DNA of 64,000 nucleotides from NCBI RefSeq assembly GCF_055900595.2, contig NZ_CM148325.1; one strand, given 5' to 3'. Positions 1 through 13,472 of the stretch are shown one piece after another (position 1 is the first letter of the stretch; each line of letters begins with the position of its first letter). The translations under genes and the position numbers were made by a program. The notes under the pieces were generated by a model that did not search any database, had not been told where the DNA came from, and saw only the letters and a program-made list of their open reading frames with translations.

Positions 1-241
1 CGGCGGTGGTTAACTCACCGCTTAAACAGAGCAGTAACACCTGTTCGCCTGTTGATGGCCGCCACCACGTCCGGGCATCACCGGCGCGTAGCGTCAGCCA
101 CGGTATCCAGTTGGTGGTCAGTTCACCAGTGTGAATGCGTACTCGATCGCCCTTCACCTCTTCAACGGTGCCGGTACGGATCAGGTTTTCAATGCGCCGG
201 TGCAGCTCGGCGAGGTTGGCTGGGTGGTTTGCGTCGCTCAT
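1..241 (-). CDS. Baseplate assembly protein V (gpV-like), N-terminal part; 3' end outside window
   Basis: Reverse-strand translation from ATG at 241: MSDANHPANLAELHRRIENLIRTGTVEEVKGDRVRIHTGELTTNWIPWLTLRAGDARTWWRPSTGEQVLLL, which resembles the P2 gpV N-terminus as recalled (IRTG, TWW-PS-GEQVL). Confidence 0.7.
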   Translation of the reverse strand, partial: MSDANHPANLAELHRRIENLIRTGTVEEVKGDRVRIHTGELTTNWIPWLTLRAGDARTWWRPSTGEQVLLLCLSGELTTA

Positions 242-305
242 GCCGGAATCATTGGGATTCGCGGGCGAAGAGGGAAGGGCTAAGGCTTGTAGGATAATGG
301 GCTAC

Positions 306-333
306 AAGTAAAACGCCCCTGAGTAGGGGCGTT
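306..333 (-). terminator. Hairpin plus T-tract downstream of hicB
   Basis: Stem aacgcccct/aggggcgtt with a 4-nt loop, followed on the - strand by TTTTAC. Confidence 0.45.
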
Positions 334-347
334 GAACGAAAAAGAGC

Positions 348-683
348 TTAACCGTGCGCAGCCTTCATCAGTGTATCGTTAATCCACTGGTTAACGCTTT
401 TACCGGAGACTTCTGCCGCAACGTTAATGGCAGAGTGAATTTCAGGTGGAATACGCAGGCTGATTTTTCCGCTGGCCGGACGCAACGGCTCCCGGCCCCG
501 TTCCTCGCAGTAAGCCAGATAGTCGTCTACCGCCTCTTCAAACGCTTTACGCAGATCGGCAACATTATCGGCATGAAAGCCAATGACATCCCGAATGCCT
601 GCAACGTGACCAACAATGCATTGATCTTCATCGCTGTATTCAATTTTTGCGGCATAGCCTCTATATGTCATGGTATTCATCAT
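348..683 (-). CDS. hicB: HicB-family antitoxin (RNase H-like fold plus C-terminal RHH)
   Basis: 111 aa. C-terminal ribbon-helix-helix-like segment ISLRIPPEIHSAINVAAEVSGKSVNQWINDTLMKA. 4-nt ATGA overlap with the upstream hicA. Confidence 0.75.
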   Translation of the reverse strand: MMNTMTYRGYAAKIEYSDEDQCIVGHVAGIRDVIGFHADNVADLRKAFEEAVDDYLAYCEERGREPLRPASGKISLRIPPEIHSAINVAAEVSGKSVNQWINDTLMKAAHG

Positions 684-943
684 GGTGTTACCCCTACAGC
701 TTCAAGGAATGTTCTGGCATCGCGAACCTGATAGGCTTTCGCTTCTTTTTCCGGGTGTGGACGATGAAATGAAGCCACAACCTGATTAATTTCAAACCTG
801 ACGCGGGAACCGTTTCCTTCCGTAGCAATAGCCCCCAAAGCAATAAATAAGGCTTCTATTTTTCGCCATTCCAGCGTGACAGGTGTTGGCGTAGAAAAAA
901 CAGCTTGTAAGGTTTTTTTATGTTTGGCGCTTAACGTATTCAT
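680..943 (-). CDS. hicA: HicA-family mRNA interferase toxin
   Basis: 87 aa. Pattern GNGSRVRF...HRPHPEKE...VR..RTFLEAVGV fits the HicA signature (GSH-x-F, HxP, KE, lysine/arginine-rich C-terminus). Immediately upstream of hicB. Confidence 0.7.
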   Translation of the reverse strand: MNTLSAKHKKTLQAVFSTPTPVTLEWRKIEALFIALGAIATEGNGSRVRFEINQVVASFHRPHPEKEAKAYQVRDARTFLEAVGVTP

Positions 944-992
944 ACAGGGTATTTTCCATAAGTTATTTTATTCTTCCGCCAAGATATAATGA

Positions 993-1013
993 TGATATCA
1001 TTTTTTGATATCA
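993..1013. promoter_or_regulatory. Putative hicAB operator: two copies of the palindrome TGATATCA
   Basis: TGATATCA at 993-1000 and 1006-1013, in the AT-rich region just upstream of the hicA start and downstream of the S stop. Confidence 0.45.
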
Positions 1014-1015
1014 TT

Positions 1016-1462
1016 TCAAGTCAGGAAGTGAACGATTAGCGCCTCTATCTTTCGCACATCCTCCGCCGAAACCCCCAGCAACTGCCTTTGTGCGTAATCC
1101 ACCTCCAACCCGTAGCGATTTACCCGATCGCGCAGGCCATACTGATGAACGGCGGCCATATGTCGAACGCTGCTGAGAAACGAAATGGTTACACCCTGCC
1201 CATCGCCTTTTCCTTTCATATAGCGTGCGGTACGCAGCTTACGGAACATCTGGCGGCGGATCTTTCCTTTTTTACTGCGTAGCTGGGGCTTACGGGGGGC
1301 GAACGATGAGCCGTCCGGGTTTTTCTGCGCGGCTATCCGCTGGCTTTGTGACTGGCGCAGGCTGCGGGCGATTTCCCGCGCCAGTTGGGTTCGGCTTGCC
1401 GGGGAGAGCTTTACGAGCAGGCCATCGGCCCAGCGGTGGAGTTGTTGCAGGTCTTCGCTCAT
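1016..1462 (-). CDS. Tail completion / virion morphogenesis protein (gpS-like)
   Basis: 148 aa, about the size of P2 gpS, in the expected position after R. Confidence 0.7.
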   Translation of the reverse strand: MSEDLQQLHRWADGLLVKLSPASRTQLAREIARSLRQSQSQRIAAQKNPDGSSFAPRKPQLRSKKGKIRRQMFRKLRTARYMKGKGDGQGVTISFLSSVRHMAAVHQYGLRDRVNRYGLEVDYAQRQLLGVSAEDVRKIEALIVHFLT

Positions 1463-1920
1463 CAGGTGCTCACAATCGTTTCACCGCGACAGGCGATTTC
1501 CCAGCCGTTGTAACCGCTTTCTGGCTGCTGGTCGTTACAGTGCTTTGCTTCCAGACCACCGTCGCGCTGGCGAACAATGACGCGCTCGGTCAGCGCCAGT
1601 TTGATGCTGATATCGTAGCTTTGATGGTCGATGGCTTCGGCCTCAAACTGAAACGCCTGCTCGCGCAGGTCGCTATTGGCGAAGGCTTCCTGCTGGTGAA
1701 GCGACATCCAGCCGACCAGTAGCACCATCAGCGTATCGGGATCGGCGGCGTAGTCGGTGATCAACAGTTCCAGCGTGTACTGGTATTCAAAACTGGTGCT
1801 GCGCCCTGCGGTGGCGACGATCCGGCCCTTATTGATAAAGATCCGCAGCGCGTCCGGGTTCTGCTGTAGATGCGGGACGCTGGCGGCCAGCAGTTCACGG
1901 ATGAGCTGCGCTTTGTGCAT
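1462..1920 (-). CDS. Tail completion protein (gpR-like)
   Basis: 152 aa, in the expected position between the lysis genes and S; start/stop overlap with S. Confidence 0.7.
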   Translation of the reverse strand: MHKAQLIRELLAASVPHLQQNPDALRIFINKGRIVATAGRSTSFEYQYTLELLITDYAADPDTLMVLLVGWMSLHQQEAFANSDLREQAFQFEAEAIDHQSYDISIKLALTERVIVRQRDGGLEAKHCNDQQPESGYNGWEIACRGETIVST

Positions 1921-2170
1921 CGATACGCTCCTGACAGCTAATCGTCATATCCACCTGCGCAGCGCACTGGTGCCACGCGTTTTCAGTGTCCAGCAGTGCG
2001 CGGCTTAAATCTTCATTACTCTGCGGTTGCAGCGCCGGAAGCTGGCAGGGCCTCAGTTTCGGGCAATTGACGGTAAGCCGCACTGCCGGTAATGGTGGTG
2101 TGCTGGTGCAGGCGGATAATATCAGCGGGCAAAGCAGTATCAGCCCATTCACGAAGCTGTTGATTTTCAC
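1895..2170 (-). CDS. o-spanin (Rz1/LysC-like outer-membrane lipoprotein), starting inside the i-spanin gene in another frame
   Basis: 91 aa with signal peptide and lipobox (LILLCPLILSAC-TS). Starts within the 2016-2465 ORF and runs past its end into R. Confidence 0.6.
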   Translation of the reverse strand: MKINSFVNGLILLCPLILSACTSTPPLPAVRLTVNCPKLRPCQLPALQPQSNEDLSRALLDTENAWHQCAAQVDMTISCQERIDAQSAAHP

Positions 2171-2465
2171 GTTTCAGTTTCTCCAGTTGCTGATTGCGCT
2201 GCCGTAGCTGGTCATGGGCGGCGGCGGTTTGCTGTTGCAGCGTCAGGTATGCCTGCTGGTCGGCGTCGGCCTGTTGCTGGAGTTCGTCCAGTTCCCGCAC
2301 TTTTGTCATCAGGGATTCGGTCAGGCTGGCAATCTGAGTGTCGGCCAGCCTGATGTGCTGCTGCTGTTCAATAAGCTGTTCCTGCTGCGTCATACGCTGC
2401 CAGTTAGTCCAGAGCAGCATCACACCGAGCAACAGCAGCGGCGCGGCTTTCATCCAGCCCATCAT
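2016..2465 (-). CDS. i-spanin (Rz/LysB-like)
   Basis: 149 aa. N-terminal TM segment, then a Q/E-rich coiled-coil-like region. Overlaps the endolysin stop. Confidence 0.65.
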   Translation of the reverse strand: MMGWMKAAPLLLLGVMLLWTNWQRMTQQEQLIEQQQHIRLADTQIASLTESLMTKVRELDELQQQADADQQAYLTLQQQTAAAHDQLRQRNQQLEKLKRENQQLREWADTALPADIIRLHQHTTITGSAAYRQLPETEALPASGAATAE

Positions 2466-3052
2466 GCTGCCGCCTTACTGAATTTTTCGAAGGCGACCGC
2501 CAGCTTAGTATCGTACTGGTTGCGTTTGTACTGTGGCCCGTTGTAGCGGCGGGCGAACTCTGGCCAGTTCTGTACCTTCATCGCGTCGTGGATCTTCGAA
2601 TTGGCCTCAACAAAGCGCACGAAGGTATCAAGCTGCATCTGCTCGCTGTCGTTCATCTGTTTTTCAAAGTCGGCAGCAGAGGTGTAGCCCAGCGTTTTCC
2701 AGTGAAAGCCCATAATCTGGAACAGTCCCCAGCTTGCGCTCTCAATGGCGGCGGCGCTGTGGATCTGTTTCGCCAGATTCAGACGGTAGTGCTCACGGCT
2801 TCCGCCCTGATAGCCGCCTGCGCTCTTGTTCACCAGATCCGGGTAATTCTGCGCCAGCCGGTCGGCGTCCAGTCCGTGGCTTTTTAACTGGCGGTACATG
2901 ACGTGGCGTTCAAACAGAATAGCTGGGCGGCCATCGGGCAAGAAGCCGTGAGATCGGGCTTCAACCTCCTGCACTGCCTGTAATGTCGCCAGCGGGATGC
3001 CCAGATACAGCGCGGCGGCCTGCTGCTGATCATGAGTGAGTGTACGAGTCAT
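2462..3052 (-). CDS. Endolysin, N-acetylmuramidase family (DUF3380-type)
   Basis: 196 aa containing the GLFQIMGFHW motif typical of this muramidase family. Lies in the lysis cassette. Confidence 0.7.
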   Translation of the reverse strand: MTRTLTHDQQQAAALYLGIPLATLQAVQEVEARSHGFLPDGRPAILFERHVMYRQLKSHGLDADRLAQNYPDLVNKSAGGYQGGSREHYRLNLAKQIHSAAAIESASWGLFQIMGFHWKTLGYTSAADFEKQMNDSEQMQLDTFVRFVEANSKIHDAMKVQNWPEFARRYNGPQYKRNQYDTKLAVAFEKFSKAAA

Positions 3053-3344
3053 GGCGTGGCTCCTTCGGGTGGTGACGTAAGGGTTTAATCAGGCTGGCGA
3101 CGTTGCCGCGTGCGGCAGTCAGGCAAATCAGCAGCACGATGTTGATGGCGGTTTCGGCGATAAACACGTAGCGGTACAGGCTGAAACAAATCAGTACCGC
3201 CACTGATGCGGTGCAGCACATCAGCAGCCACGCCAGCCAGCTATACAGCGGGCGATAGGTAGTACCGTGAACGCGGCGATAGAGGAACAGACGGATGGTA
3301 ATCAGCAGGCAAATAATGGCGTTAAGGCTCAGGATTAGTTTCAT
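3030..3344 (-). CDS. Small membrane protein of the lysis cassette (holin/antiholin-like)
   Basis: 104 aa, strongly hydrophobic with about 3 predicted TM segments. ATGA overlap with the upstream holin-like gene. Confidence 0.5.
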   Translation of the reverse strand: MKLILSLNAIICLLITIRLFLYRRVHGTTYRPLYSWLAWLLMCCTASVAVLICFSLYRYVFIAETAINIVLLICLTAARGNVASLIKPLRHHPKEPRHDSYTHS

Positions 3345-3718
3345 TTGCGTCCCCTTAAAAAGTCGAGCAGTTGACCGGGGTTATCCAGTTGTCGGATGGC
3401 CCATAGCAGCGCCTTGACGGTAAGCGCCGATGAGAGCAGCGCCCCGATACCGGGGGAGACTTTTTCCGTCAGATGTTGCGGCAGATATCCGGCGACCAGT
3501 GCAGTGAACAGGTCGGCGGTCAGCAGGCCGATCACAAACGCCACGCAGAAGAAAATGATGCGCAGGAACAGGCCGATCTCTTTTTGCGAAATCACCAGCA
3601 GCAGCGCGCCACACAATGCGCCGAGCACCACCGGAGCCTGTAGCGTCGGGAACAGCGTGGCAATGGAGAATGCGCTTACGGAAGCGGCGACGACGGTGCC
3701 GGTTACGGGTTCGTTCAT
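3341..3718 (-). CDS. Holin-like membrane protein
   Basis: About 125 aa taking the ATG at 3718 (MNEPVTG...); the track's longer form needs a GTG start. Multiple TM helices. Located directly after X. Confidence 0.55.
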   Translation of the reverse strand: MNEPVTGTVVAASVSAFSIATLFPTLQAPVVLGALCGALLLVISQKEIGLFLRIIFFCVAFVIGLLTADLFTALVAGYLPQHLTEKVSPGIGALLSSALTVKALLWAIRQLDNPGQLLDFLRGRK

Positions 3719-3720
3719 AG

Positions 3721-3924
3721 TCAGTCCCACAGGTTGATTCGTTGACGTTCGGCGGCGGGAGCCTGTTCAGGTACGTTCACCGCCGTACCGTGCGGCAGGC
3801 GCAGCGGCAGTTCGCATAGGCGCGGGTTGTCGCGGTAAAGCCGTTCGACAATCCCGGCAGTGCGCCCGAAGGTGCGCCAGCAGAGCTGGTCGAGCGTTTC
3901 GTTTTGCAGGCTATAGACAATCAT
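3721..3924 (-). CDS. Tail protein X (gpX-like)
   Basis: 67 aa, the same length as P2 gpX. Sequence MIVYSLQNETLDQLCWRTFGRT.... Confidence 0.7.
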   Translation of the reverse strand: MIVYSLQNETLDQLCWRTFGRTAGIVERLYRDNPRLCELPLRLPHGTAVNVPEQAPAAERQRINLWD

Positions 3925-4038
3925 GGTGTTTCCCGCGCGGCGTCAGGTGATGCGGGGATGGTGGCACAGGGGCGGGAAGTGAAGGGAAGGCTTCCGCTTG
4001 TAACTGAGGACAGTACAAGCGGAAGCGATTGGCGAGGG

Positions 4039-4359
4039 CTATGCCTCGTCGCTGTCGGTATTGATGATTTTCAGTTCAGCGGACTTCTGGAGCTGGATCA
4101 GCGCCGGGATCAGAAGCGCGGTAGCCGACAGGCCGTGCCCTAACTGGCACAGGCTTTCAGCGGAGAATTCCAGCACGTTGCTGTCGGCAAAGGAGACGAA
4201 GGTTTTACCCAGAAAATGCAGGCCGTGACATAGCCCGGCATAGCACTCTTCGCTGCTGTTGGCCAGTTGCAGAGTATCGTCGGCGTTCAGGTGTGAAATA
4301 TCCAGCTTGCGGATCGCGTCCGCCAGTTCAGAGGACAGAATATTGGTTTCAGGCACCAT
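4039..4359 (-). CDS. Hypothetical protein, 106 aa, acidic C-terminus
   Basis: Strong SD (GGAGGT, 5-nt spacer) before the ATG at 4359. No family recognised by eye. Last of three small genes in the L-X island. Confidence 0.55.
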   Translation of the reverse strand: MVPETNILSSELADAIRKLDISHLNADDTLQLANSSEECYAGLCHGLHFLGKTFVSFADSNVLEFSAESLCQLGHGLSATALLIPALIQLQKSAELKIINTDSDEA

Positions 4360-4525
4360 GGCGCACCTCCAGCGGTTTGCAGGAGACGAACACCAGCGGG
4401 AAACCCGCCAGCAGGCCGCGAGCCTCTGTCTCTGTTGTCGCCAGTACGGATACCAGACGCAGTGGCTGGATCTCGCGCAGCAGGCGGTTGGAACGGGCGT
4501 TCAGGAAGGTGTAGAGCTTAGGCAT
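4352..4525 (-). CDS. Hypothetical small protein, 57 aa (not in ORF track because <60 aa)
   Basis: Hand translation: MPKLYTFLNARSNRLLREIQPLRLVSVLATTETEARGLLAGFPLVFVSCKPLEVRHGA. SD GGAGGT 4 nt before the ATG at 4525. Overlaps both neighbours by 8 nt. Confidence 0.5.
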
Positions 4526-4694
4526 GGTTCACCTCCTCTACCGGGGTGCTACGTGGGGGATTGAACGACTGAGCGATAACGCTCAGTGCCTGCTTACCTT
4601 CGGGATGCGCAAGACGGTAGTAAGTTAACAGGACTTGCTCCTGTGGGCTGAGATCGTCCCACGTGAGAGTTGTGTTACTATTAGCGGTAGCCAT
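4518..4694 (-). CDS. Hypothetical small protein, 58 aa
   Basis: ATG at 4694 preceded by GAGGT (MATANSNTTLTWDDLSPQEQVLLTYYRLAHPEGK...). The track's longer form starts at 4757 without a good SD. Confidence 0.5.
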   Translation of the reverse strand: MATANSNTTLTWDDLSPQEQVLLTYYRLAHPEGKQALSVIAQSFNPPRSTPVEEVNHA

Positions 4695-4836
4695 AGCATT
4701 ACCTCGATTAATGTTGTGGTTAGATGCCTTGGCAGTGTTCGCGCACTGTCGGGGCATTGTTATTTATGTCATGTGATAGTAATGTGTCATCACACAGTAC
4801 TACATTAACCTGAGTGTGATTTAGGTGTCAATACAC
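4695..4836. promoter_or_regulatory. AT-rich divergent promoter/operator region between the two island operons
   Basis: Inverted repeat TGTGAT...ATCACA (tgtcatgtgatagtaatgtgtcatcacacag) and further GTGTGA copies between the start codons at 4694 (-) and 4837 (+). Confidence 0.45.
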
Positions 4837-5004
4837 ATGAATGAAAGAAGAGGAAATCCTCCGTTTCAGTTTCGACTCGATCCTGAACTGAGAAACGCGA
4901 TGGAAGAAGCTAAAAAGCAAGATGGTGATGAATCACTGGCTGCGTGGATTAAGCGAATTATCAGAAAAGAGCTTCAGTCACGGGGTATAGAACCAAAAGA
5001 TTAG
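4837..5004 (+). CDS. Arc/MetJ-type ribbon-helix-helix DNA-binding protein, 55 aa
   Basis: Hand translation: MNERRGNPPFQFRLDPELRNAMEEAKKQDGDESLAAWIKRIIRKELQSRGIEPKD, matching the RHH pattern F-x-L-R-L-x-x-E-L...SLN/A.I..RL. First gene of the + operon. Confidence 0.55.
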   Translation: MNERRGNPPFQFRLDPELRNAMEEAKKQDGDESLAAWIKRIIRKELQSRGIEPKD

Positions 5005-5050
5005 CAGATAGGTATATACTTTGAATAAAGAGTATTAGAGGTAAAAAATA

Positions 5051-5239
5051 ATGGCGAAGAATAGCAGTCCTGCCAGCCGATACGGTATCAAGGTCGTAAA
5101 AAGAGACAGTATGAGCGGGCAGTTTGTACCCGTCGAAATGAAGCTGGACGGCCCGGAAGGTGAGCGTGTGATTAAAAAGTCGGCAGAGCGTATTTATGCC
5201 AGACACAACAAAGTCATTAAGGCGCTGGCTAACCGATGA
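5051..5239 (+). CDS. Putative antitoxin partner of the Doc toxin (family not recognised; not Phd/YefM-like)
   Basis: 62 aa. SD AGAGGT upstream. Stop overlaps the Doc start (ATGA at 5236-5239), a typical toxin-antitoxin coupling. Confidence 0.5.
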   Translation: MAKNSSPASRYGIKVVKRDSMSGQFVPVEMKLDGPEGERVIKKSAERIYARHNKVIKALANR

Positions 5240-5613
5240 TTGATGCACATTTGGTGATTGGAATTCACGACTTTATTCTTGCTCATGAGCCGGGATTGGT
5301 TGGTTATCAGGATGCTGGCCGGGTCGAGGCAACACTGGCACGGGTGGATAACCGTATTCTGTATGAGCAGATGAATGATATTTTCCAGATCGCCGCATCT
5401 TATGCGGTTGCCATCGCCAGAGGGCACGTTTTTGCTGATGCCAACAAGCGAACGGCACTGGTGACGGCGTTGACATACCTTGATATGCAGGGTGTGAACC
5501 TCAAGCGAACACAAAAGCTGGAAGATATTATGGTGGATGTGGCTGAGGGAACGCTAAATCTGGATGATTTAGCCGATATTTTCTATACCCTTAGTGATGT
5601 AAATGCTTCCTGA
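5236..5613 (+). CDS. doc: Doc (death-on-curing) family toxin, Fic fold
   Basis: 125 aa. Conserved Doc motif HVFADANKRTA (HxFx[DN][AG]NKR). Size and layout parallel P1 Doc. Confidence 0.8.
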   Translation: MIDAHLVIGIHDFILAHEPGLVGYQDAGRVEATLARVDNRILYEQMNDIFQIAASYAVAIARGHVFADANKRTALVTALTYLDMQGVNLKRTQKLEDIMVDVAEGTLNLDDLADIFYTLSDVNAS

Positions 5614-5618
5614 CGTTA

Positions 5619-5643
5619 CAGCCCGACAGATCGGGCTGTTTTT
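5619..5643. terminator. Bidirectional hairpin terminator between the convergent Doc gene and the 78-aa gene
   Basis: cagcccga-caga-tcgggctg followed by TTTTT on + strand; A-run on the other side. Confidence 0.6.
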
Positions 5644-5645
5644 AA

Positions 5646-5882
5646 TTATGCCGCCTCAATACCCGCGTTGGTTAACATATAGTGGCCCCAGTGGTTTTTT
5701 TTCAGGTAACCGGCCAGTTCCATCTGCGTCACAATAAATTCAGCGTTAACCATTTCTATACCTGCGTAGTCGGCCAGATCGCGCAGCGGCCATGTGCTGC
5801 GAACGCCGACGCTAACTATGGTGTCTCTGATGCGGCGAGCGGTATCGGTCATTGGGCGGGTTCTGGCTGCCTGAATAGTCAT
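5646..5882 (-). CDS. Hypothetical protein, 78 aa, possible winged-helix DNA-binding protein
   Basis: ATG at 5882 with SD AGGGGA. Sequence ...LRDLADYAGIEMVNAEFIVTQMELAGYLKK... Lies directly after L on the late strand. Confidence 0.45.
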   Translation of the reverse strand: MTIQAARTRPMTDTARRIRDTIVSVGVRSTWPLRDLADYAGIEMVNAEFIVTQMELAGYLKKNHWGHYMLTNAGIEAA

Positions 5883-5998
5883 GGTATTTTCCCCTGTAGA
5901 TTCTTTCTGTTAGGTCAGACACTAACTCTGGTGGGGAAGGGGCATCCAGCGTTCAGATGAGGCGATACGGTGATGCGCATCGCATATCCGTACTCTTT

Positions 5999-6466
5999 TT
6001 ATACCAGAACAAACGTACTGCGCGGCTTGCCCAGAATATCCCGCACGGCGAAGCGGGCATCGCGCGCCAGATCGTCGGCGGTGCTTTCCTTCTGTTCCGC
6101 CAGTTTGCTGCCGTGGGCGGTGGCATCAAAGTTACGGTAGCGTTCCAGCAGGTTTGCGTGCGTCAGGCTGTACACCGCGTAGCGGTAGCGGTGCAGGTTA
6201 ACGCTTTCGCCGTCCAGCCGTTCGGTAGTAGTTTCCACAATGCCGGTTGTGCCACGGCTTTCCTGCTCCAGCCGCCATTCCCGCAGGTCGTCGTTCACGC
6301 TGGCCAGCGCAATCAGCAGCGCCTCGCGCAGCCGTTCGTTGGTGATGGTGCTGTCCAGCCGTTGGGTTGCACGCAGATGTTGCGTATCGATATTGGGAAA
6401 GAAAGGGTGGTTGCTGATAACCAGCCCCGGCAGACTGGCGGCGGGGGCAACCTGAATAAAGCTCAT
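5999..6466 (-). CDS. Head completion/stabilisation protein (gpL-like)
   Basis: 155 aa from the ATG at 6466 (MSFIQVAPAASLPG...) with SD GGAGA. Position after small terminase M. The track's longer form begins at an upstream alternative start. Confidence 0.7.
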   Translation of the reverse strand: MSFIQVAPAASLPGLVISNHPFFPNIDTQHLRATQRLDSTITNERLREALLIALASVNDDLREWRLEQESRGTTGIVETTTERLDGESVNLHRYRYAVYSLTHANLLERYRNFDATAHGSKLAEQKESTADDLARDARFAVRDILGKPRSTFVLV

Positions 6467-6551
6467 TATATTCTCCCTGTTCGGCGGTGGACGGCGGGCG
6501 TTGCAGTGGTAAAACCACGCGCGGCCAGCCGTGCCGCCGGTCGTGAGGGTC

Positions 6552-7205
6552 TCACTCGGTAGGCTGACTGTTGCGAATTTGTCGCTCCAGTTGCTCAATC
6601 AGCTTTTTCACGCCGACGTTCTCATCCAGTTGTAGCGCGCGCTGGAACTGCGCCAGCGCCTCCTGCGGCTGGCTTTCGCTGTGTGCCAGCCCCAATGCCT
6701 TGTGCAGGCGAGCGCGAACCTGATCCGGCATGTCCTGATCGGCTAACAGCCCGGCAAAGGCCAGCAGGCTGTCCAGCGCCGCAAAGGTACCGGCGGTAAG
6801 CTGTTTCAGGGTGGTGTCGGCGACCTCTTCAGCCACCATGCAGGCGGTCTGCCGCTGGTACTGATCCGGCGTTACCCAGCCGTGTTTCAGGGCGTGTTCC
6901 GCCATGGGGTAGGCAGCGGGAAAGTCGCCGGTATCCAGCGTCCAGAGCAGCACCGTCATAAACACATCGTCCTGCTGTTGGCTGTCGGCAGCCAGAACGC
7001 CGCTTACCCATGGCTGGTAATCGGGCAGCAGTTCACCCTTAACCTCGATTTTGCGTTCAATGGACTGGATCGCTTTCAGGCGGCGTTTATCGGTTGCCAG
7101 CTTTGCCAGCATCAGTTCATAGCCGCTGGCGTAGGTCTGATTTTCCTGTTGATTTGCGGCCTGCGCCTGATAGCGCAGCAGGTGGCGGCGGGCAGGCGTC
7201 ATCAT
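6552..7205 (-). CDS. Terminase small/endonuclease subunit (gpM-like)
   Basis: 217 aa, in the P2 late-operon position between N and L. Confidence 0.65.
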   Translation of the reverse strand: MMTPARRHLLRYQAQAANQQENQTYASGYELMLAKLATDKRRLKAIQSIERKIEVKGELLPDYQPWVSGVLAADSQQQDDVFMTVLLWTLDTGDFPAAYPMAEHALKHGWVTPDQYQRQTACMVAEEVADTTLKQLTAGTFAALDSLLAFAGLLADQDMPDQVRARLHKALGLAHSESQPQEALAQFQRALQLDENVGVKKLIEQLERQIRNSQPTE

Positions 7206-8221
7206 GCGTCTTTATCCTCAAACTTGATGTTTTCAAACAGGCAACCGCAGCCGAAGTCTTCCACCACAAAGGCATCGTTGGAAGACTCGAAGTTCTCTAC
7301 CCGGTCACGTTTGGGGTTATCAATAATGGCGCGGCGGCGGGTGCCTTTCTGGACATAGATAGACAGGTTACTGAAGGCGGTGACCAGAATGGTGTTGTGC
7401 GGGAAACCCGGCACGCGCACGGCAGGGCGACTGCCGATGGTTTTCTGGCTGACCAGAATCTGCCCCGCCAGTTTTTCGCTGTTCTCATTGTGCTGGTTGA
7501 GGATCGGGAAGTATTTGTCGTGCAGGACGCCACGGCCACAAATGGCGACCAGATCTGCGCCGTCGACATGCCATTCGTCAATCAGGTTTTCTTCGCCGTC
7601 ATTGACCATGGCGTCCAGATTCTCATAGTCGCCGCCTTTGCCAATGATGATTTTGCCGGAACCTTCCACACCTTCGTTCATGACGCGTTCCGGGGCGTGA
7701 TCGCGATACTGCTGCAGCCAGCCTTTGTTAACGTCCTGCAGAAGGGGGTAACGCTGGAAGTCGGTCTGGGCTGCAACGAGGATACCGTTGAAGCCAATCA
7801 GGATGCGGTCTAATCCCTGTCGCCGGGTGATGCTGTCGCGCACGCGGATCTGAAAATCTGGGTGGGCGGCCCATGCGTCCAGTTTGGCGTATTTCAGCGC
7901 GGTATCGTAGTTGGTTTTTTCGCAGCGGTAGCGGTTAGTCGTCATTGACGTGGGGTCGACGGGTTCACGTTCACGCTGACTGGTATCGGTACGACTGGCC
8001 GTGGGGCGATCAATGCCGATACCGACTTTTTCACCTTCCTGATCCACCACTTCATGGACGTTGATTTCGGTCAGGAATTCTACGGACGCCTGAATTTTGG
8101 TTTCCAGCGTCTGCTGTACGGAAGGTTCTACCGTGAATTCGACGGCGGCGCTCTGGACACCGGACAGCCCGGCGACGGTTTCAACGTAAGCGTTGTATTT
8201 TAAGCGGGTTTCGTTACGCAT
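7202..8221 (-). CDS. Major capsid protein (gpN-like, P2 family)
   Basis: 339 aa, close to P2 gpN in size, in the position after scaffold O. Confidence 0.75.
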   Translation of the reverse strand: MRNETRLKYNAYVETVAGLSGVQSAAVEFTVEPSVQQTLETKIQASVEFLTEINVHEVVDQEGEKVGIGIDRPTASRTDTSQREREPVDPTSMTTNRYRCEKTNYDTALKYAKLDAWAAHPDFQIRVRDSITRRQGLDRILIGFNGILVAAQTDFQRYPLLQDVNKGWLQQYRDHAPERVMNEGVEGSGKIIIGKGGDYENLDAMVNDGEENLIDEWHVDGADLVAICGRGVLHDKYFPILNQHNENSEKLAGQILVSQKTIGSRPAVRVPGFPHNTILVTAFSNLSIYVQKGTRRRAIIDNPKRDRVENFESSNDAFVVEDFGCGCLFENIKFEDKDA

Positions 8222-8231
8222 CGGGGGTTCC

Positions 8232-9059
8232 TTAACAGTCGGTTTTCAGGTCGGTGTTGCCACCGGTGGCAGGCTGGCGCGGCGGTGTGGCCGGTTGTTT
8301 TGCAAGCTGAGTTTTCAGCGTGGAATAATCGGTCTGTAGCTGCTGATGCTGCGTTTGCAGCTCAGACAGCTCAGCGCGAATTTGGTCGACCTGTTCGCTA
8401 CAGAACGTCGCTACTTCCTCCACCGCCAGATGCACGTCGTCCCGTTGCTGGTCGTCGTGGTTCTGCTTTTTACTTAACAGCGCCTTGATGCGGGTAAACA
8501 GAGATTCGCCGCTGCTTTCCTCCACTTCTTCAAACTCCAGTTCAATCTCTTCTGCCACGCTGAAAATGTTCTCCGGCGAGCGTTTACGCGCCGCCAGCGG
8601 GTTGCTTTGCGCGCTGGCGCAGAAGGAGAGCATTTCGGTGCCGAGGCTGGCCGGATCGTCGGTGACCGCCAGCCCGACCAGATAGGCTTTGCCCGTGTCG
8701 GCAAATTTCGGATTGACTTCCACCGAGGTATAAACCTTCTGCCCTTTGCGGTTCATTTCGACCAGCGAATCCGTTGGGGCCAGACGCGCCAGCAGCGCCA
8801 GTTTGCCTTTCAGGGGACCGTCTTCGGCGATCTCTTCTTTCTTCACCATCGCCACGTCGCCGTAGCGCTGGAACGGGCCGTCCGGCAGGATGCCTTTCAG
8901 GTGCTCCAGATTAATGCGCGCGCCGTACACTTTTGGGCTGTATGTATCGGCCATTTGCTCGATCCACTGGCGTTCAATCGTGCGCTTGTCGCAGGTTGCG
9001 CCTTCTACGGCGATACGCACCCATTTAGAGAGCAGTTTTTTCTTTGGCTTTTTGTCCAT
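8232..9059 (-). CDS. Capsid scaffolding protein (gpO-like)
   Basis: 275 aa with an acidic/coiled-coil C-terminal half. First gene of the O-N-M-L operon, divergent from the terminase. Confidence 0.75.
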   Translation of the reverse strand: MDKKPKKKLLSKWVRIAVEGATCDKRTIERQWIEQMADTYSPKVYGARINLEHLKGILPDGPFQRYGDVAMVKKEEIAEDGPLKGKLALLARLAPTDSLVEMNRKGQKVYTSVEVNPKFADTGKAYLVGLAVTDDPASLGTEMLSFCASAQSNPLAARKRSPENIFSVAEEIELEFEEVEESSGESLFTRIKALLSKKQNHDDQQRDDVHLAVEEVATFCSEQVDQIRAELSELQTQHQQLQTDYSTLKTQLAKQPATPPRQPATGGNTDLKTDC

Positions 9060-9214: not shown

Positions 9215-10999
9215 ATGCCGCCAGACATCGAAAAACATCTGCTTGCCCTTCAGGACGAAGATCCACGCCGTAAAGCCCGCTATCTGTACTGGCAGGGTTT
9301 TCGCATTGCGCGGATCGCTGAACTATTGGGGGTGAAAGTTACCACGCTGCATAGCTGGAAGCGGCGCGATGGCTGGGACGAATCCGCCCCGCTGGAGCGG
9401 GTGACGGCGGTGACCGAAGCGCGGCTGATCCAGCTCACGGTGAAGGAAAATAAGGAGGGAAAGGATTTTAAGGAGATCGACCTGCTCTGGCGGCAGATGG
9501 AGCGCGGGGCAAGGGTTGAACGCTATCAGCAGGGGGGCAATGAGGTCGACCTGAACCCTGCTCTTGCGAAGCGTAACGCCGGGCCGCGCAGACAGCCGGA
9601 AACCAACCATATCAGCGAGGAGCAGGCGGAGAAGCTGAAACAGTTATTTCTGGACGGACTGTATCCGCACCAGAAACACTGGTACCGCGCCGGGCTGGAA
9701 CACCGTATCCGCGATATCAACAAGTCGCGCCAGATTGGGGCGACGATGTTCTTCGGGCGGGAAGGATTTATGGATGCGGTGGAGAGCGGGCGCAACCAGA
9801 TCTTTCTCTCGGCCTCCAAAGCGCAGGCGCACCAGTTCCGCCAGTACATTGTCGATTTTGCTCGTGAGGCGGATGTTGAGCTGAAGGGCGAAGTCATTCA
9901 CTTGCCGCATAATGATAGCCGGATGTATTTTCTCGGCACCAATGCCCGCACCGCCCAGACCTATCATGGCAACCTGTATCTGGATGAATACTTCTGGATA
10001 CACCGCTTTTTGGAACTGCGCCGTAACGCGGCGGGGATGGCCAGCCAGAAACGCTGGCGGCAGACCTACTTTTCCACACCGTCCAGCATTACCCACGAAG
10101 CCTATAAGTTCTGGACAGGGCAACTGTTCAACAAGGGCAGGCCGAAGAGCGAACAGATTCGACTGGATATCAGCCATCGGGCGCTGGCGGCGGGGCGTCT
10201 GTGTGAAGACGGCCAGTGGCGGCAAATCGTCACCGTTGAGGATGCCATCAATCAGGGTTATGACCTGTTCGACCTTGAGCAACTCAGGCTGGAGAACTCG
10301 CCGGAAGAGTTCGCCAACCTGTTTATGTGCCAGTTTATCGACGATACCGCATCGGTATTCCCACTAAGCATGTTGCAGGGTTGCATGGTCGATAGCTGGG
10401 AAGTCTGGGACGACTACAAGCCGTTTGCCCTGCGTCCGCTCGGCGAACGCTCGGTGTGGGTGGGGTACGATCCCGCATTAAGCGGTGACAGCGCCGGGTG
10501 CGTGATGGTCGCGCCGCCGGTCATTGAGGGCGGCAAGTTTCGGGTAATTGAAAAGCACCAGTGGCACGGGATGGACTTCGCGGCGCAGGCGGAAAATATC
10601 CGCAAAATTACCGAGCGCTATAACGTGACTTACATCGGTATTGACGTGACCGGCATCGGCCACGGCGTGCATCAACTGGTGAAACAGTTCTTCCCGGCAG
10701 TGCAGGCATTCTCTTATTCCCCAGAAGTGAAACAGCGTCTGGTGCTGAAAACGCTGGACGTTGTCCGTAAACGCCGACTGGAGTTTGACGCCGGATGGAC
10801 GGATCTGGCGCAGGCGTTTATGGCAATTCGCAAAACCCTGACTCCGTCCGGGCGTCAGGTGACCTTCGAGGCCAGCCGTTCGGAAGAAGTCTCCCACGCG
10901 GATCTGGCATGGGCGTGTATGCACGCCATTATCAATGAACCACTGGAAAGCTCCGGCGGCGCGAACAGCGGGCGGGGCTTAATTAAGGTGTACGGATGA
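9215..10999 (+). CDS. Terminase large (ATPase) subunit (gpP-like)
   Basis: 594 aa, similar to P2 gpP in size. N-terminal HTH-like region; Walker-A-like KSRQIGATMF. Confidence 0.75.
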   Translation: MPPDIEKHLLALQDEDPRRKARYLYWQGFRIARIAELLGVKVTTLHSWKRRDGWDESAPLERVTAVTEARLIQLTVKENKEGKDFKEIDLLWRQMERGARVERYQQGGNEVDLNPALAKRNAGPRRQPETNHISEEQAEKLKQLFLDGLYPHQKHWYRAGLEHRIRDINKSRQIGATMFFGREGFMDAVESGRNQIFLSASKAQAHQFRQYIVDFAREADVELKGEVIHLPHNDSRMYFLGTNARTAQTYHGNLYLDEYFWIHRFLELRRNAAGMASQKRWRQTYFSTPSSITHEAYKFWTGQLFNKGRPKSEQIRLDISHRALAAGRLCEDGQWRQIVTVEDAINQGYDLFDLEQLRLENSPEEFANLFMCQFIDDTASVFPLSMLQGCMVDSWEVWDDYKPFALRPLGERSVWVGYDPALSGDSAGCVMVAPPVIEGGKFRVIEKHQWHGMDFAAQAENIRKITERYNVTYIGIDVTGIGHGVHQLVKQFFPAVQAFSYSPEVKQRLVLKTLDVVRKRRLEFDAGWTDLAQAFMAIRKTLTPSGRQVTFEASRSEEVSHADLAWACMHAIINEPLESSGGANSGRGLIKVYG

Positions 11000-11976
11000 A
11001 TAACTCAATGGCTTTCACCTTCGGTGAACCTGAAGCCCTGCTGGACAGGCGGGAAATACTGAACTATCTGGAGTGCGTGGACTTTGGCAAATGGTATGCG
11101 CCGCCGGTGGATTTTAATTCGCTGGCGCTGTCGTTCCGCGCTTCGGCGCATCATACCAGCCCGATCTGCGTGAAGCGCAACGTGCTGGTTGGTACCTTCA
11201 TACCTCATCCGTTGTTGACCCGGCAGGCGTTCAGCCGCCTTGCGCTGGACTATCTGGTATTCGGCAATGCCTATCTGGAGCGGCAGGATAACCGGCTGGG
11301 CCAGCCGTTAACGCTGGTGCCTGCGCTGGCGAAGTATGTCCGGCGCGGCAAGGCGCTGGACAGCTATTTCTTTGTTCAGCCCGGTAAAGTGGATCATGAG
11401 TTTGCGTCGGGCAGTATCGGCCACCTGCTGGAGCCGGATATCAATCAGGAAATCTACGGCCTGTCGGAATACCTCTCTGCGCTGAACGCGGCATGGCTGG
11501 ATAACTCCGCCACGCTGTTTCGCCGTCGTTACTACAAGAACGGCAGTCATGCCGGTTTCATCCTCTACCTGAGCGACCCGGCCCACAACGAGGCGGATAT
11601 TGGGGCGTTACAGGAAGCGCTAGCGAACAGCCGTGGCCCCGGCAACTTCCGCAATCTGCTGATGTATCTGCCGAACGGCAAGCCAGACAGCGTAAAGGTT
11701 ATCCCGATTGGCGAGGTGGCGGCGAAAGATAACTTCTCCGATATCAAGAGTGTCAGCCGTGACGACCAGTTAGCTGCGCACCGGGTACCACCTGCGCTCA
11801 TGGGCGTGGTACCGAGTAACGCCGGTGGCTTTGGTGATGCCATCAAAGCGGCGAAGGTATTCAACTGCAATGAGATCGAGCCGCTACAGGAACGGTTCAA
11901 GGAGCTGAACGACTGGCTGGGGCTGGAGGTTATTCGCTTCAAAAAGTACCGCCTTGCCGACGACGATTCAGAGTAA
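10996..11976 (+). CDS. Portal vertex protein (gpQ-like)
   Basis: 326 aa, translationally coupled to the terminase (ATGA overlap); position as in P2 Q. Confidence 0.65.
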   Translation: MNNSMAFTFGEPEALLDRREILNYLECVDFGKWYAPPVDFNSLALSFRASAHHTSPICVKRNVLVGTFIPHPLLTRQAFSRLALDYLVFGNAYLERQDNRLGQPLTLVPALAKYVRRGKALDSYFFVQPGKVDHEFASGSIGHLLEPDINQEIYGLSEYLSALNAAWLDNSATLFRRRYYKNGSHAGFILYLSDPAHNEADIGALQEALANSRGPGNFRNLLMYLPNGKPDSVKVIPIGEVAAKDNFSDIKSVSRDDQLAAHRVPPALMGVVPSNAGGFGDAIKAAKVFNCNEIEPLQERFKELNDWLGLEVIRFKKYRLADDDSE

Positions 11977-12021
11977 CCCCACCAACGACCAGCTCACTAT
12001 CAGAGCCACCATGCGCCATTC

Positions 12022-12046
12022 AGCCCGCTTCCTGCGGGCTTTTTTA
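12022..12046 (+). terminator. Rho-independent terminator after the portal gene
   Basis: agcccgc-ttcct-gcgggct followed by TTTTTT. Confidence 0.65.
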
Positions 12047-12295
12047 CGCCTTCTCACCGCCAGAATCCCCGGTCAGCACCGCCAGCGCGCGGTTGTGACC
12101 CCGCCACGCCTGCGCAGTAAATAGATCGCTTTTTTTGCACTGGTGCGTAAGCGTCGGAGCGGGCCATAACGGGAGGGCGTGGTCGGGTTGCAGTTGCAGC
12201 AGAATCATGCGGATTTATACGCCCTGTGTATGCGCCAGAGACGATCGGGAGGGCAATGCCACGATCCTTTCGGTATTTTTGGATCGCCTGTCGGG

Positions 12296-12581
12296 AAAAG
12301 GTAACCTCAGTAATTAGCAGTAAAAATAATGCTTATTCTATTGTTTATAAAAGAGAAATTTGGTTACCCCTAAAAGGTAATCTGAGGTAACCCAAAAGGT
12401 AACCTGTTTTATATTTTCATATAAATCATGATGTTACAAATTAGAAGACATCACTATTATAAAAGGTAACCTGATTACGCTTTGGTTACCAAAAGATTAC
12501 CTTTCTCTGTTTTTGAAAAATCCTTTTTATTCATTAAGTTATTTTGATTTTTCGTTGCAGGTTACTAAGGTTACCTTTTTC
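12296..12581. repeat. Array of about 9-10 copies of (A)AAAGGTAAYC in both orientations; candidate protein-binding sites
   Basis: Direct copies near 12296, 12372, 12385, 12394, 12461; inverted copies near 12362, 12484, 12497, 12560, 12570. AT-rich; no ORF of 60 aa or more. Confidence 0.6.
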
Positions 12582-12850
12582 CGAAGTCCCCACGGACTTT
12601 GGTATATATAGATAGGTTAAAAAGTAGCCGTTATGTTTGCCAGCTATTTACTTCCCATTCTTCCACTGGCCAGCATGTTAATATGCCCGGTAATGATAAC
12701 TAGTTGCCATTGGGTTACTTTCTTCTGTGGACGGTAAAACTGACGGTAAATTGGGTTGTGGGTCTCGATTTAGATTAGTAAAATCAAGTGATTAAGTCGA
12801 CTGTAGATAATCGAGTGGGAATGATTTGATCCCTGCACTATGAATTAGCA

Positions 12851-12880
12851 AAACCCTCTGTTACTACAGAGGGTTTTTTA
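12851..12880 (-). terminator. Hairpin terminator downstream of yfgI (bidirectional shape)
   Basis: aaaccctctg-ttacta-cagagggttt flanked by T/A runs. Confidence 0.6.
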
Positions 12881-12917
12881 TACTCACGAATCATAGGATT
12901 GAAGTTACTGACATCGC

Positions 12918-13457: not shown

Positions 13458-13472
13458 GACTCCTCCTGATTA

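What the first reader, a model, noticed from the sequence alone, without database searches (positions are those of the whole stretch)
1..12917. P2-like prophage occupies the yfgI-guaA interval, which is contiguous in E. coli K-12
The chromosomal part of the window matches the K-12 gene order from yfgI onward. In K-12 I expect guaA next to yfgI, but here phage late genes are found instead. This marks a prophage integration site carrying accessory toxin modules (HicAB, Doc).
Basis: established knowledge. Interest (0 to 1): 0.4.

Follow-up and report, generated by a model that had tools for sequence, protein, structure and literature searches.

The report
P2-family prophage inserted at guaA
The first 12.8 kb of the window is the right-hand part of an apparently complete P2-family prophage, inserted by site-specific recombination into the last codons of guaA (a published E. 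coli attachment site) and carrying HicAB and Doc toxin modules in its cargo slots; this is an ordinary, well-understood kind of feature.

Summary

- **Chromosome:** Window 12813-64000 is collinear with K-12 MG1655 at about 97% identity. In K-12, guaA and yfgI are convergent neighbours 92 bp apart.
- **Prophage:** Window 1-12826 holds P2-type late genes in P2 order (V, S, R, LysC/B, endolysin, two holins, X, L, M, N, O | P, Q). These are followed by a P2/186-like cos site, a non-coding arm and the attR core GAGTGGGAATGATT, which is the last codons and stop of guaA.
- **Boundary:** The true boundary is 12813-12826, not 12917.
- **Left end:** guaA lies outside the window. Copies 99.99-100% identical to the part of the window's prophage that they overlap (at most bases 1-10680) lie, in other assemblies, on the contig that continues to a P4-type integrase next to guaA. 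The whole element is about 35 kb.
- **Site:** The guaA 3' end is already a published attB, used by phage vB_EcoP_ZX5 and by GIsul2. About 16% of complete E. coli genomes have the junction split, and this phage accounts for only 3 of 5426.
- **Cargo:** HicA/HicB and Doc are real. They sit in two slots where relatives carry AbiTii, PD-Lambda-3, RelE-type modules or nothing.
- **Relatives:** The closest sequenced phage terminase is 64% identical.

Verdict: a new member of a known kind, of low interest.

The parts
2..241 (-). Baseplate spike V, N-terminal part; the gene runs off the left edge of the window.
   Evidence: PF04717 Phage_base_V, 48.9 bits. The full 199-aa gene is present in identical copies L093/L097.
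348..683 (-). hicB antitoxin (111 aa, HicB domain with a C-terminal ribbon-helix-helix-like part).
   Evidence: PF05534, 66 bits; phrog_9151 'HicB-like antitoxin', 1e-47. A terminator-like hairpin lies at 333-312.
680..943 (-). hicA toxin (87 aa). It overlaps hicB by 4 bp. A promoter-like site at 1019-992 lies upstream.
   Evidence: PF07927, 33.5 bits against a cut-off of 27; phrog_8887 'toxin', 2e-32. The cassette at about 292-1043 is replaced by other cargo in relatives.
1016..1920 (-). Tail completion and virion morphogenesis genes S (1016-1462) and R (1462-1920).
   Evidence: PF05069, 125 bits; PF06891, 150 bits.
1895..3924 (-). Lysis cassette and X: LysC (1895-2170), LysB/Rz-like (2016-2465), N-acetylmuramidase (2462-3052), two holins (3030-3344, 3341-3730), tail protein X (3721-3924).
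   Evidence: PF23793, phrog_89, PF11860, PF05449, PF16931, PF05489.
4033..6011 (.). Accessory slot between X and L; it is absent (15 bp) in relatives L011 and L012. Contents: a 106-aa unknown protein (4039-4359, minus strand), an Icd-like 58-aa protein (4349-4525, minus), a 58/79-aa ORF (4518-4694/4757, minus), an Arc/RHH-like 59-aa protein (4825-5004, plus), a 62-aa putative antitoxin (5051-5239, plus), Doc (5236-5613, plus), a terminator (5618-5639), and a 78-aa unknown protein (5646-5882, minus).
   Evidence: Relatives carry Gp49/RelE-type+HTH (L725), an Rpn/YhgA nuclease (L013) or an unknown 189-aa protein (L010) after the same RHH gene.
5236..5613 (+). Doc toxin (125 aa) with the Doc-type Fic motif H64-V-F-A-D-A-N-K-R72. 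Its start overlaps the stop of the 62-aa ORF (ATGA).
   Evidence: TIGR01550, 88.5 bits. Matches P1 Doc structures 3K33/3DD7 at E=1e-25, with the motif aligned to HIFNDANKR.
5999..9059 (-). Head genes: L head completion (5999-6466), M small terminase (6552-7205), N major capsid (7202-8221), O scaffold/protease (8232-9059).
   Evidence: PF05926, PF05944, PF05125 (462 bits), PF05929 (362 bits).
9215..11976 (+). P large terminase (9215-10999) and Q portal (10996-11976).
   Evidence: PF06056+PF03237+PF17289; PF04860. The best phage match for TerL is 63.7% aa identity.
12022..12046 (+). Rho-independent terminator after Q, the counterpart of tQ in P2 and tW in 186.
12092..12110 (-). cos cohesive-end sequence, GGCGTGGCGGGGTCACAAC on the minus strand.
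   Evidence: It aligns with the annotated 19-nt cos of P2 (GGCGAGGCGGGGAAAGCAC) and 186, together with the flanking GCGCGC. It is invariant in all relatives.
12296..12584 (.). AT-rich (31% GC) cluster of 9-10 GGTAA(C/T)C heptamers, mostly forward on the left and reverse on the right, flanking an AT-rich centre. Best guess: replication origin iterons, or another regulatory binding array.
   Evidence: 6 of the 9 matches to AAAGGTAACC (one mismatch or fewer) in the 64-kb window fall here, and 0 of 100 shuffles reach 9. Heptamers are 94% conserved against 68% for spacers versus the 85%-identical relative L011, Fisher p=1e-5. There is no second cluster elsewhere in the prophage. The function is inferred only.
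12730..12750 (+). Two direct GACGGTAAA repeats in the P' arm, candidate integrase arm-type sites.
   Evidence: The same motif occurs 3-4 times in the int-proximal arm at attL of GMF054 and AP025754.1 and is conserved in L011.
12813..12826 (+). attR core GAGTGGGAATGATT, a duplicate of the last codons, stop codon and 3 following nt of guaA.
   Evidence: Alignment of attR, attL and K-12 attB. The K-12 match starts at 12813. The same core is published for phage vB_EcoP_ZX5 (attgagtgggaatgatt, PMC9782041) and GIsul2 (GAGTGGGA, PMC9376610).
12827..12917 (.). Native guaA-yfgI intergenic spacer with a bidirectional terminator hairpin (12850-12877). This is host DNA, not phage.
   Evidence: I10.
12918..13457 (-). 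yfgI, the first host gene.

Best explanation

**Integration.** A P4-type tyrosine integrase, encoded at the far end outside the window, recombined the phage attP core with the identical 14-bp sequence GAGTGGGAATGATT at the end of guaA. The phage copy of the core rebuilds the guaA stop codon, so guaA stays intact. The prophage therefore lies with int next to guaA and with portal, cos and the P' arm next to yfgI.

**Phage genes.** The window part carries a complete P2-order head, packaging, lysis and tail-completion module and a P2/186-type cos.

**Cargo.** Two self-contained cassettes interrupt the late genes. The first is hicA-hicB between V and S, with its own promoter-like site and terminator. 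The second lies between X and L and holds an RHH gene, a 62-aa partner and doc, next to an Icd-like operon. HicA family members are mRNA-cleaving toxins neutralised by HicB. Doc family members are Fic-fold kinases that inactivate EF-Tu. These functions are established family knowledge, not tested here. Relatives carry abortive-infection or defence genes or other toxin-antitoxin pairs in the same slots. The modules are therefore most likely lysogen-expressed cargo that protects the host and prophage against other phages, or stabilises the prophage.
For: - **Gene content and order:**
- **cos homology:**
- **Host collinearity and K-12 adjacency:** the chromosome is collinear with K-12 from 12813 onward, and guaA and yfgI are adjacent in K-12.
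- **att core:** it is duplicated at attL and attR, with phage-side and host-side flanks swapped as expected for site-specific recombination.
- **Left end:** copies overlapping window 1-10680 at 99.99% and 1-2382 at 100% belong to contigs that continue to Ogr, toprim primase, DUF7673, AlpA and a P4-type integrase (Arm-DNA-bind_3) next to guaA-guaB-xseA. Ten of ten places show this arrangement.
- **Same site in relatives:** the three related prophages in complete RefSeq genomes sit at the same site.
- **Published attB:** PMC9782041 and PMC9376610.
- **Toxin-antitoxin modules:**
- **Cargo slots vary between relatives:** AbiTii, PD-Lambda-3_A, RelE+HTH, Gp49+HTH, Rpn, or empty.
Against: - The left two-thirds of the prophage and guaA are not in the window. 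They are inferred from near-identical copies elsewhere.
- In one of those copies (AP025754.1) the primase is split into 564 + 318 aa. This could be a sequencing error or inactivation, so viability of this particular copy is unproven.
- No induction, toxicity or defence data exist.
- Doc's 62-aa partner shows no similarity to Phd.
- HicA lacks the His of the common G-S-H motif (read from the sequence).
- PADLOC has no model hit for HicAB.
Confidence: 0.93

Rival explanations
1. The element is a defective or cryptic P2-like remnant (or a domesticated tailocin-like cluster) that can no longer excise or form particles, rather than a functional prophage.
For: The primase is called as two ORFs in AP025754.1. 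Nothing here tests function. An IS1 insertion and a split integrase occur in one related copy (L109), which shows that decay happens in this lineage.
Against: All 20-odd genes in the window are full length relative to their Pfam profiles and to relatives. The cos site, both att cores, the arm repeats and the integrase are present. The primase is intact (885 aa) in L106 and L110, which are 100% identical to L093 over the 3.5 kb they overlap. The same phage is found at 96-100% identity in many independent assemblies and, at 85% identity, at the guaA site of a genome with a different guaA-downstream flank, presumably another species. This argues for recent mobility.
Confidence: 0.1
2. The guaA-yfgI interruption arose by rearrangement or by tandem accretion of several elements, so that 1-12917 is a composite and not one phage.
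For: The site is shared by several element types. In GMF054 a 3.9-kb DUF262-pair islet lies in tandem to the right of the phage, between two att cores.
Against: In the window the phage arm runs uninterrupted from cos to a single att core, which abuts native spacer. L725 has the same simple structure. There is no islet, GIsul2 or Uetakevirus sequence in 1-12917.
Confidence: 0.02
3. HicAB and Doc are plain addiction (post-segregational stabilisation) modules with no role in defence against other phages.
For: P1 Phd-Doc is the classical plasmid-prophage addiction system (family knowledge). PADLOC has no hit for the HicAB pair and only weak candidate-family hits for Doc.
Against: An integrated prophage gains little from segregational killing. 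The same two slots hold AbiTii, PD-Lambda-3_A and other defence-type genes in relatives. Published surveys find defence systems concentrated in such P2 hotspots.
Confidence: 0.35

Closest known systems
Bacteriophages P2 and 186 (Peduoviridae: Peduovirus, Eganvirus)
   Same: The order of late genes is the same: Q-P | O-N-M-L-X-holin-endolysin-LysB/C-R-S-V. All diagnostic Pfam families are present. The cos site lies about 120-170 bp beyond the portal stop, and 12 of 19 cohesive-end bases are identical to 186. An Ogr-type late activator is present in identical copies.
   Different: TerL is only about 64% identical and there is almost no DNA similarity. In relatives and identical copies the early region has no C/Cox/B/A. 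It consists instead of a P4-type integrase, AlpA, DUF7673 (with or without FtsK-gamma) and an 885-aa toprim primase. attP lies next to cos, not between ogr and int. The attB is guaA rather than the P2 loc sites.
phiCTX / Ralstonia RSY1-type peduoviruses
   Same: They share a homologous large toprim primase: 57% identity to RSY1, and the phiCTX group (Citexvirus) is among the hits. From memory of Nakayama et al. 1999, attP and int lie close to cos in phiCTX.
   Different: The hosts and integration sites differ, and the structural genes are no closer than those of P2. The phiCTX layout was not re-examined here.
guaA 3'-end attB users: phage vB_EcoP_ZX5 (Uetakevirus) and genomic island GIsul2
   Same: The core is identical (attgagtgggaatgatt / GAGTGGGA) at the last codons of guaA, and the integrase is P4-like.
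   Different: The elements are unrelated: a podovirus and an integrative mobilisable resistance island. In complete E. coli genomes the Uetakevirus-type lysis cassette is present in 559 genomes (only a few were checked to lie at this site) and this myovirus in 3.
P2-like phage defence/accessory hotspots (Rousset et al. 2022, PMC9122126; preprint 10.64898/2026.02.27.708500)
   Same: Variable cargo sits at fixed positions between core genes, including a hotspot downstream of gpL and others within the late genes.
   Different: The classical hotspot between gpA and the portal, next to cos, is empty here. It is occupied by a non-coding iteron-like array and the attP arm.
P1 Phd-Doc and E. coli HicAB type II toxin-antitoxin systems
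   Same: Doc aligns along its length with P1 Doc and retains the HxFxDANKR motif. The hicA-hicB order and overlap are typical.
   Different: Doc's upstream partner is not a Phd/YefM protein, and an extra RHH gene precedes it. HicA is a long (87-aa) variant with no sequence match to any solved structure.

Membership tests
P2-family phage (Peduoviridae) morphogenesis module | P2-type major capsid (PF05125), GPO scaffold, gpM/gpP terminase pair, gpQ portal and gpL head completion, in the divergent Q-P | O-N-M-L arrangement. | tested here: met
   All are above Pfam cut-offs and in that order at 5999-11976.
P2-family phage (Peduoviridae) morphogenesis module | X, a lysis cassette with LysB/LysC spanins, R, S and V following L. 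| tested here: met
   Located at 2-3924.
P2-family phage (Peduoviridae) morphogenesis module | P2/186-type 19-nt cos just beyond the portal gene. | tested here: met
   Alignment to the annotated cos of NC_001895 and NC_001317. Cleavage was not shown experimentally.
P2-family phage (Peduoviridae) morphogenesis module | Ogr/Delta zinc-finger late activator. | tested here: met
   It is not in the window. PF04606 is present in contigs carrying near-identical prophage copies and in relatives.
Genus-level P2/186 relatives (Peduovirus/Eganvirus) | P2-type early region (C repressor, Cox, B, A rolling-circle initiator), and an integrase with attP between ogr and int. | tested here: not met
   Relatives and contigs carrying near-identical prophage copies have a P4-type int, AlpA, DUF7673 and a toprim primase, and attP lies next to cos. 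TerL is 64% identical.
Site-specific integration at the guaA 3'-end attB | Core GAGTGGGA(ATGATT) duplicated at both junctions, with guaA restored. | tested here: met
   attR lies in the window at 12813-26. attL was found in AP025754.1 and GMF054.
Site-specific integration at the guaA 3'-end attB | Tyrosine integrase of the P4 type adjacent to attL. | tested here: met
   PF13356+PF22022+PF00589, 399 aa, next to guaA in 9 of 10 places and split in one. It lies outside the window.
Site-specific integration at the guaA 3'-end attB | Excision and integration activity. | not testable with these tools
   This needs induction followed by attP/attB junction PCR or sequencing reads.
HicAB type II toxin-antitoxin | HicA_toxin and HicB domains above threshold, adjacent, toxin first. 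| tested here: met
   PF07927 at 33.5 bits (cut-off 27) and PF05534 at 66 bits (cut-off 21), with a 4-bp overlap.
HicAB type II toxin-antitoxin | Toxicity of HicA and neutralisation by HicB. | not testable with these tools
   No experiment was possible. There is no solved homologue by sequence.
Phd-Doc type II toxin-antitoxin | Doc toxin with the Fic-fold motif HxFx(D/N)(A/G)NKR. | tested here: met
   TIGR01550 at 88.5 bits. Residues H64-R72 (HVFADANKR) align to P1 Doc.
Phd-Doc type II toxin-antitoxin | Upstream antitoxin of the Phd/YefM family. | tested here: not met
   The 62-aa ORF has no Pfam, NCBIfam or PDB match, only phrog_11529 of unknown function. Its antitoxin role is inferred from the ATGA overlap alone.

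The most novel reading that the evidence does not exclude
The prophage may represent an uncharacterised genus-level lineage of Peduoviridae. It joins a P2-type virion, lysis and cos module to a compact P4/phiCTX-like early module (P4-type integrase, AlpA, DUF7673 with or without FtsK-gamma, toprim primase). Under this reading its replication origin is the conserved 300-bp array of inverted GGTAAYC iterons lying between cos and attP, in the exact place where classical P2-like phages keep their main defence hotspot. In addition, an antisense small RNA (plus strand, about 4689-4761) may control the Icd-like operon in the X|L slot.
Probability: 0.3. Interest if true: 0.35.

Novelty: new member of a known kind. 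Interest (0 to 1): 0.2.

Why it matters
Mainly for annotation.

- It fixes the prophage boundary at the guaA stop codon.
- It shows that the guaA 3' end is a multi-element integration hotspot in E. coli, split in about 16% of complete genomes. At least four kinds of element use it: Uetakevirus-like prophages, GIsul2-like islands, a DUF262-pair islet and this myovirus.
- It adds a rare, unsequenced-as-phage P2-family lineage to the known users of that site.
- Its cargo slots (HicAB, Doc and an Icd-like operon here; AbiTii, PD-Lambda-3 and RelE-type modules in relatives) fit the published picture of P2-like phages as carriers of swappable defence and toxin modules. They could be mined for further systems.

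None of this overturns current understanding.

Tried and rejected
- **Small ORFs at 12044-12390.** I considered them as integrase remnants or genes and rejected that. The stretch contains the cos homologue, and the ORFs are not conserved in the 85% relative, while non-coding blocks are.
- **DUF262 (GmrSD-like) pair of GMF054.** It first looked like a third cargo slot of the phage. I rejected this because it is bracketed by two att cores and occurs alone between guaA and yfgI in TB06052 and about 80 other genomes. It is a separate islet.
- **DNA search against 50,697 phage records.** There was no close relative, only 78-80% identity over about 140 bp of the portal gene.
- **Rfam on 1-14900.** Nothing reached a gathering score. 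SymR scored 29 bits against 61, and there was no C4 RNA.
- **PDB sequence searches.** The 62-aa Doc partner and HicA both gave only chance-level hits. The relatives' primase gave none.
- **A second GGTAACC cluster elsewhere in the prophage (P4 ori/crr-style).** None was found.
- **Comparable k-mer arrays next to cos in about 50 other P2-like loci.** None was found.
- **ESSI2_ev239, which has a homologous primase, fetched to compare origin layout.** Its organisation differs too much to be informative.
- **Literature search for guaA + yfgI + prophage.** No papers. Searches on guaA with attB or GIsul2 succeeded.
Full report

Yes. ORF calling and Pfam/NCBIfam/PHROG scans show that window 1-11976 is densely packed with P2-family late genes in the canonical order. 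They are: a partial baseplate spike V (2-241, minus strand), S, R, LysC, LysB, an N-acetylmuramidase, two holins, X, L, M, N (P2-family capsid, 462 bits) and O on the minus strand, followed by P (large terminase) and Q (portal) on the plus strand. GC content is 56-62% over most of this stretch, against about 51% for the rest of the window.

From 12813 to 64000 the window aligns collinearly with K-12 MG1655 at 96.6-97.3% identity, running from yfgI down to tktB/talA with no gap larger than about 40 bp (K-12 annotation). In K-12, yfgI (b2506) and guaA (b2507) are convergent neighbours separated by 92 bp. The same holds in an unrelated strain. A 601-bp probe spanning the junction is intact in 4567 of 5425 complete E. 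coli genomes. K-12 has no phage DNA there.

**2. Where exactly is the junction?**

I aligned the window's right end with K-12 attB and with attL/attR of related prophages. This shows a 14-bp core, GAGTGGGAATGATT, at window 12813-12826. It is the last codons (…E W E), the stop codon and three following bases of guaA.

- At attR the base triplet left of the core is phage-type (ATC).
- At attL the bases right of the core are phage-type (TTCG…).
- This is the pattern expected of a crossover within the core, and guaA keeps its stop codon.

**3. The left end, which the window lacks.**

Exact-protein look-ups found contigs carrying the same prophage. The overlap with GCA_035965995.1 (window 1-10680) is 99.99% identical. 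The overlap with AP025754.1 and two other assemblies (window 1-2382) is 100% identical.

Walking leftwards on those contigs gives W, J, I, tail fibre, a Dam-like methylase, sheath, tube, E/E', tape measure, U and D. Next comes a cargo block (NA37, DUF6037 and others), then Ogr, an 885-aa toprim primase, an FtsK-gamma/DUF7673 protein, a second methylase, AlpA and a 399-aa P4-type integrase (Arm-DNA-bind_3 + Phage_int_M + Phage_integrase). Immediately after that come guaA, guaB and xseA.

All ten places returned for the Ogr protein lie beside guaA, nine with an intact integrase and one with it split. The three related prophages (96-97% identical) in complete RefSeq genomes also sit between guaA and yfgI. 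From the AP025754.1 coordinates the element is about 35 kb. The claim that it "occupies the yfgI-guaA interval" is therefore verified for this prophage, though not from within the window itself.

**4. The non-coding right arm (11977-12812).**

- After the Q stop there is a terminator (12022-12046).
- The reverse complement of 12092-12110, GGCGTGGCGGGGTCACAAC, aligns with the annotated 19-nt cohesive ends of P2 and 186 and their flanking GCGCGC. It is invariant among relatives.
- An AT-rich (31% GC) segment follows at 12296-12584, with nine to ten GGTAA(C/T)C heptamers. They are mostly forward in the left half and reverse in the right half. Six of the nine matches to AAAGGTAACC (one mismatch or fewer) in the whole 64 kb fall here, and 0 of 100 shuffles reach nine.
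- Against an 85%-identical relative integrated at guaA in a genome whose guaA-downstream flank differs, presumably another species (L011), the heptamers are 94% conserved and the spacers 68% (p=1e-5).
- The array occurs once per prophage. It has no counterpart next to cos in about 50 other P2-like loci, which carry low-GC coding cargo there instead.
- Closer to the core, two direct GACGGTAAA repeats (12730, 12742) recur three to four times in the int-proximal arm at attL. They are the likely integrase arm-type sites.

My best guess for the heptamer array is a replication origin recognised by the primase or by the FtsK-gamma/DUF7673 protein, by analogy with iteron origins such as that of P4 (recalled from memory). 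This is inference only.

**5. The accessory modules.**

*Slot V|S (about 292-1043).* It holds hicA (680-943) and hicB (348-683), toxin first with a 4-bp overlap. A promoter-like site lies upstream at 1019-992 and a terminator downstream at 333-312. In relatives the same slot holds:
- PD-Lambda-3_A (GMF054);
- AbiTii (L725, CEC15), and a fragment of it in L011;
- RelE+HTH (L012).

*Slot X|L (4033-6011).* It is entirely absent in L011 and L012. Here it contains:
- a leftward operon of a 58-aa ORF, an Icd-like 58-aa protein (NCBIfam 24.8 bits against a cut-off of 25) and a 106-aa unknown protein;
- a rightward unit of an Arc/RHH-like 59-aa protein, a 62-aa ORF whose stop overlaps the next start, and Doc (TIGR01550, 88.5 bits);
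- Doc carries the motif HVFADANKR and matches P1 Doc structures at E=1e-25;
- a terminator ends the unit.

After the same RHH gene, relatives carry an Rpn/YhgA nuclease or an unknown 189-aa protein. L725 has a Gp49/RelE-type toxin with an HTH partner in the slot. The 62-aa ORF is not a detectable Phd.

Both positions correspond to accessory or defence hotspots already described for P2-like phages, namely downstream of gpL and within the late genes (also PMC9122126).

**6. Comparison with what is known.**

The virion, lysis and cos module is unmistakably P2-family. However, the nearest sequenced phage terminase is only 63.7% identical and DNA similarity is negligible. The early module of relatives and identical copies is not P2-like. 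Its primase is 57% identical to that of Ralstonia phage RSY1, and the phiCTX group is among the hits.

The attB is not new. Phage vB_EcoP_ZX5 (Uetakevirus) was shown experimentally to integrate at attgagtgggaatgatt in the 3' end of guaA (PMC9782041). GIsul2 integrates at GAGTGGGA there (PMC9376610).

Among the roughly 858 complete E. coli genomes with a split junction I saw three kinds of occupant:
- Uetakevirus-type prophages, seen next to yfgI in the two genomes inspected; the lysis cassette itself is found in 559 genomes, wherever it lies in them;
- a GIsul2-like sul2/ISCR2/ars island;
- a 3.9-kb DUF262-pair islet, in 82 genomes.

This myovirus occurs in 3 of 5426.

**7. Verdict.**

The feature is an ordinary prophage at a known attachment site with known kinds of cargo. 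It qualifies as a new member of a known kind, because the lineage has no close sequenced phage and combines P2-type late genes with a P4/phiCTX-type early module. The only mildly unusual items are the conserved iteron-like array beside cos and a possibly RNA-regulated Icd-like operon. Both are recorded as side observations, with functions inferred rather than shown.

Noticed in passing
window 12296-12584: An AT-rich array of 9-10 GGTAA(C/T)C heptamers in roughly inverted halves lies between cos and the attP arm. The heptamers are 94% conserved against 68% for spacers versus an 85% relative. The array is unique in the prophage and absent beside cos in about 50 other P2-like loci. Candidate replication origin or regulatory binding array.
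   Followed up: partly
window 4673-4760 (plus-strand RNA candidate at about 4689-4761): A short island is conserved at 84-91% in relatives that are otherwise variable or only 71-78% identical here. It covers the SD and start codon (ATG at 4694, minus strand, 'MATANSN' leader) of the Icd-like operon. It folds into two hairpins. The first has three G-U pairs, possible only on the plus strand. The second shows compensatory changes between relatives. Rfam gives only sub-threshold SymR (29 bits, cut-off 61). This may be a cis-antisense small RNA controlling a toxic Icd-like peptide.
   Followed up: partly
L002 28460-32311 (GMF054) and L092 5303-9268 (TB06052): A 3.9-kb islet encodes two DUF262/GmrSD-like proteins (one with DUF7834, one with GmrSD_C) and has no integrase. 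It sits at the guaA attB bracketed by att-core copies. It occurs alone in TB06052 and in tandem to the right of the P2-like prophage in GMF054. It is found in 82 of 5426 complete genomes, two of them on plasmids.
   Followed up: partly
L101-L110, about 6300-9950 (between gpD and ogr, outside the window): A further cargo hotspot exists in this phage lineage. Variants carry NA37 nucleoid-associated protein + DUF6037 + unknown proteins, RelA_SpoT + NA37, or caspase-like Peptidase_C14 + ThsB_TIR + WYL + HTH.
   Followed up: no
L101 10320-12977 (AP025754.1): The toprim primase is called as two ORFs (564 + 318 aa) in AP025754.1, the only complete chromosome found with this prophage copy (100% over window 1-2382). 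It is intact (885 aa) in L106 and L110, which match the L093 copy 100% over 3.5 kb. This is either a sequencing error or inactivation of that copy.
   Followed up: no
window 12830: There is a single extra T (GATCCCTGCAC against GACCCTGCAC) in the guaA-yfgI spacer just right of the att core, relative to K-12 and the other prophage-bearing strains.
   Followed up: no
phage record NC_019445.1 / JQ011317.1, 41244-41440: The deposited genome of Escherichia phage TL-2011b contains a 197-bp stretch 93% identical to the att core, spacer and yfgI 3' end, annotated as a DUF5384 protein. This suggests the record includes host flank from the same guaA/yfgI site, or that the phage carries a yfgI fragment.
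   Followed up: no
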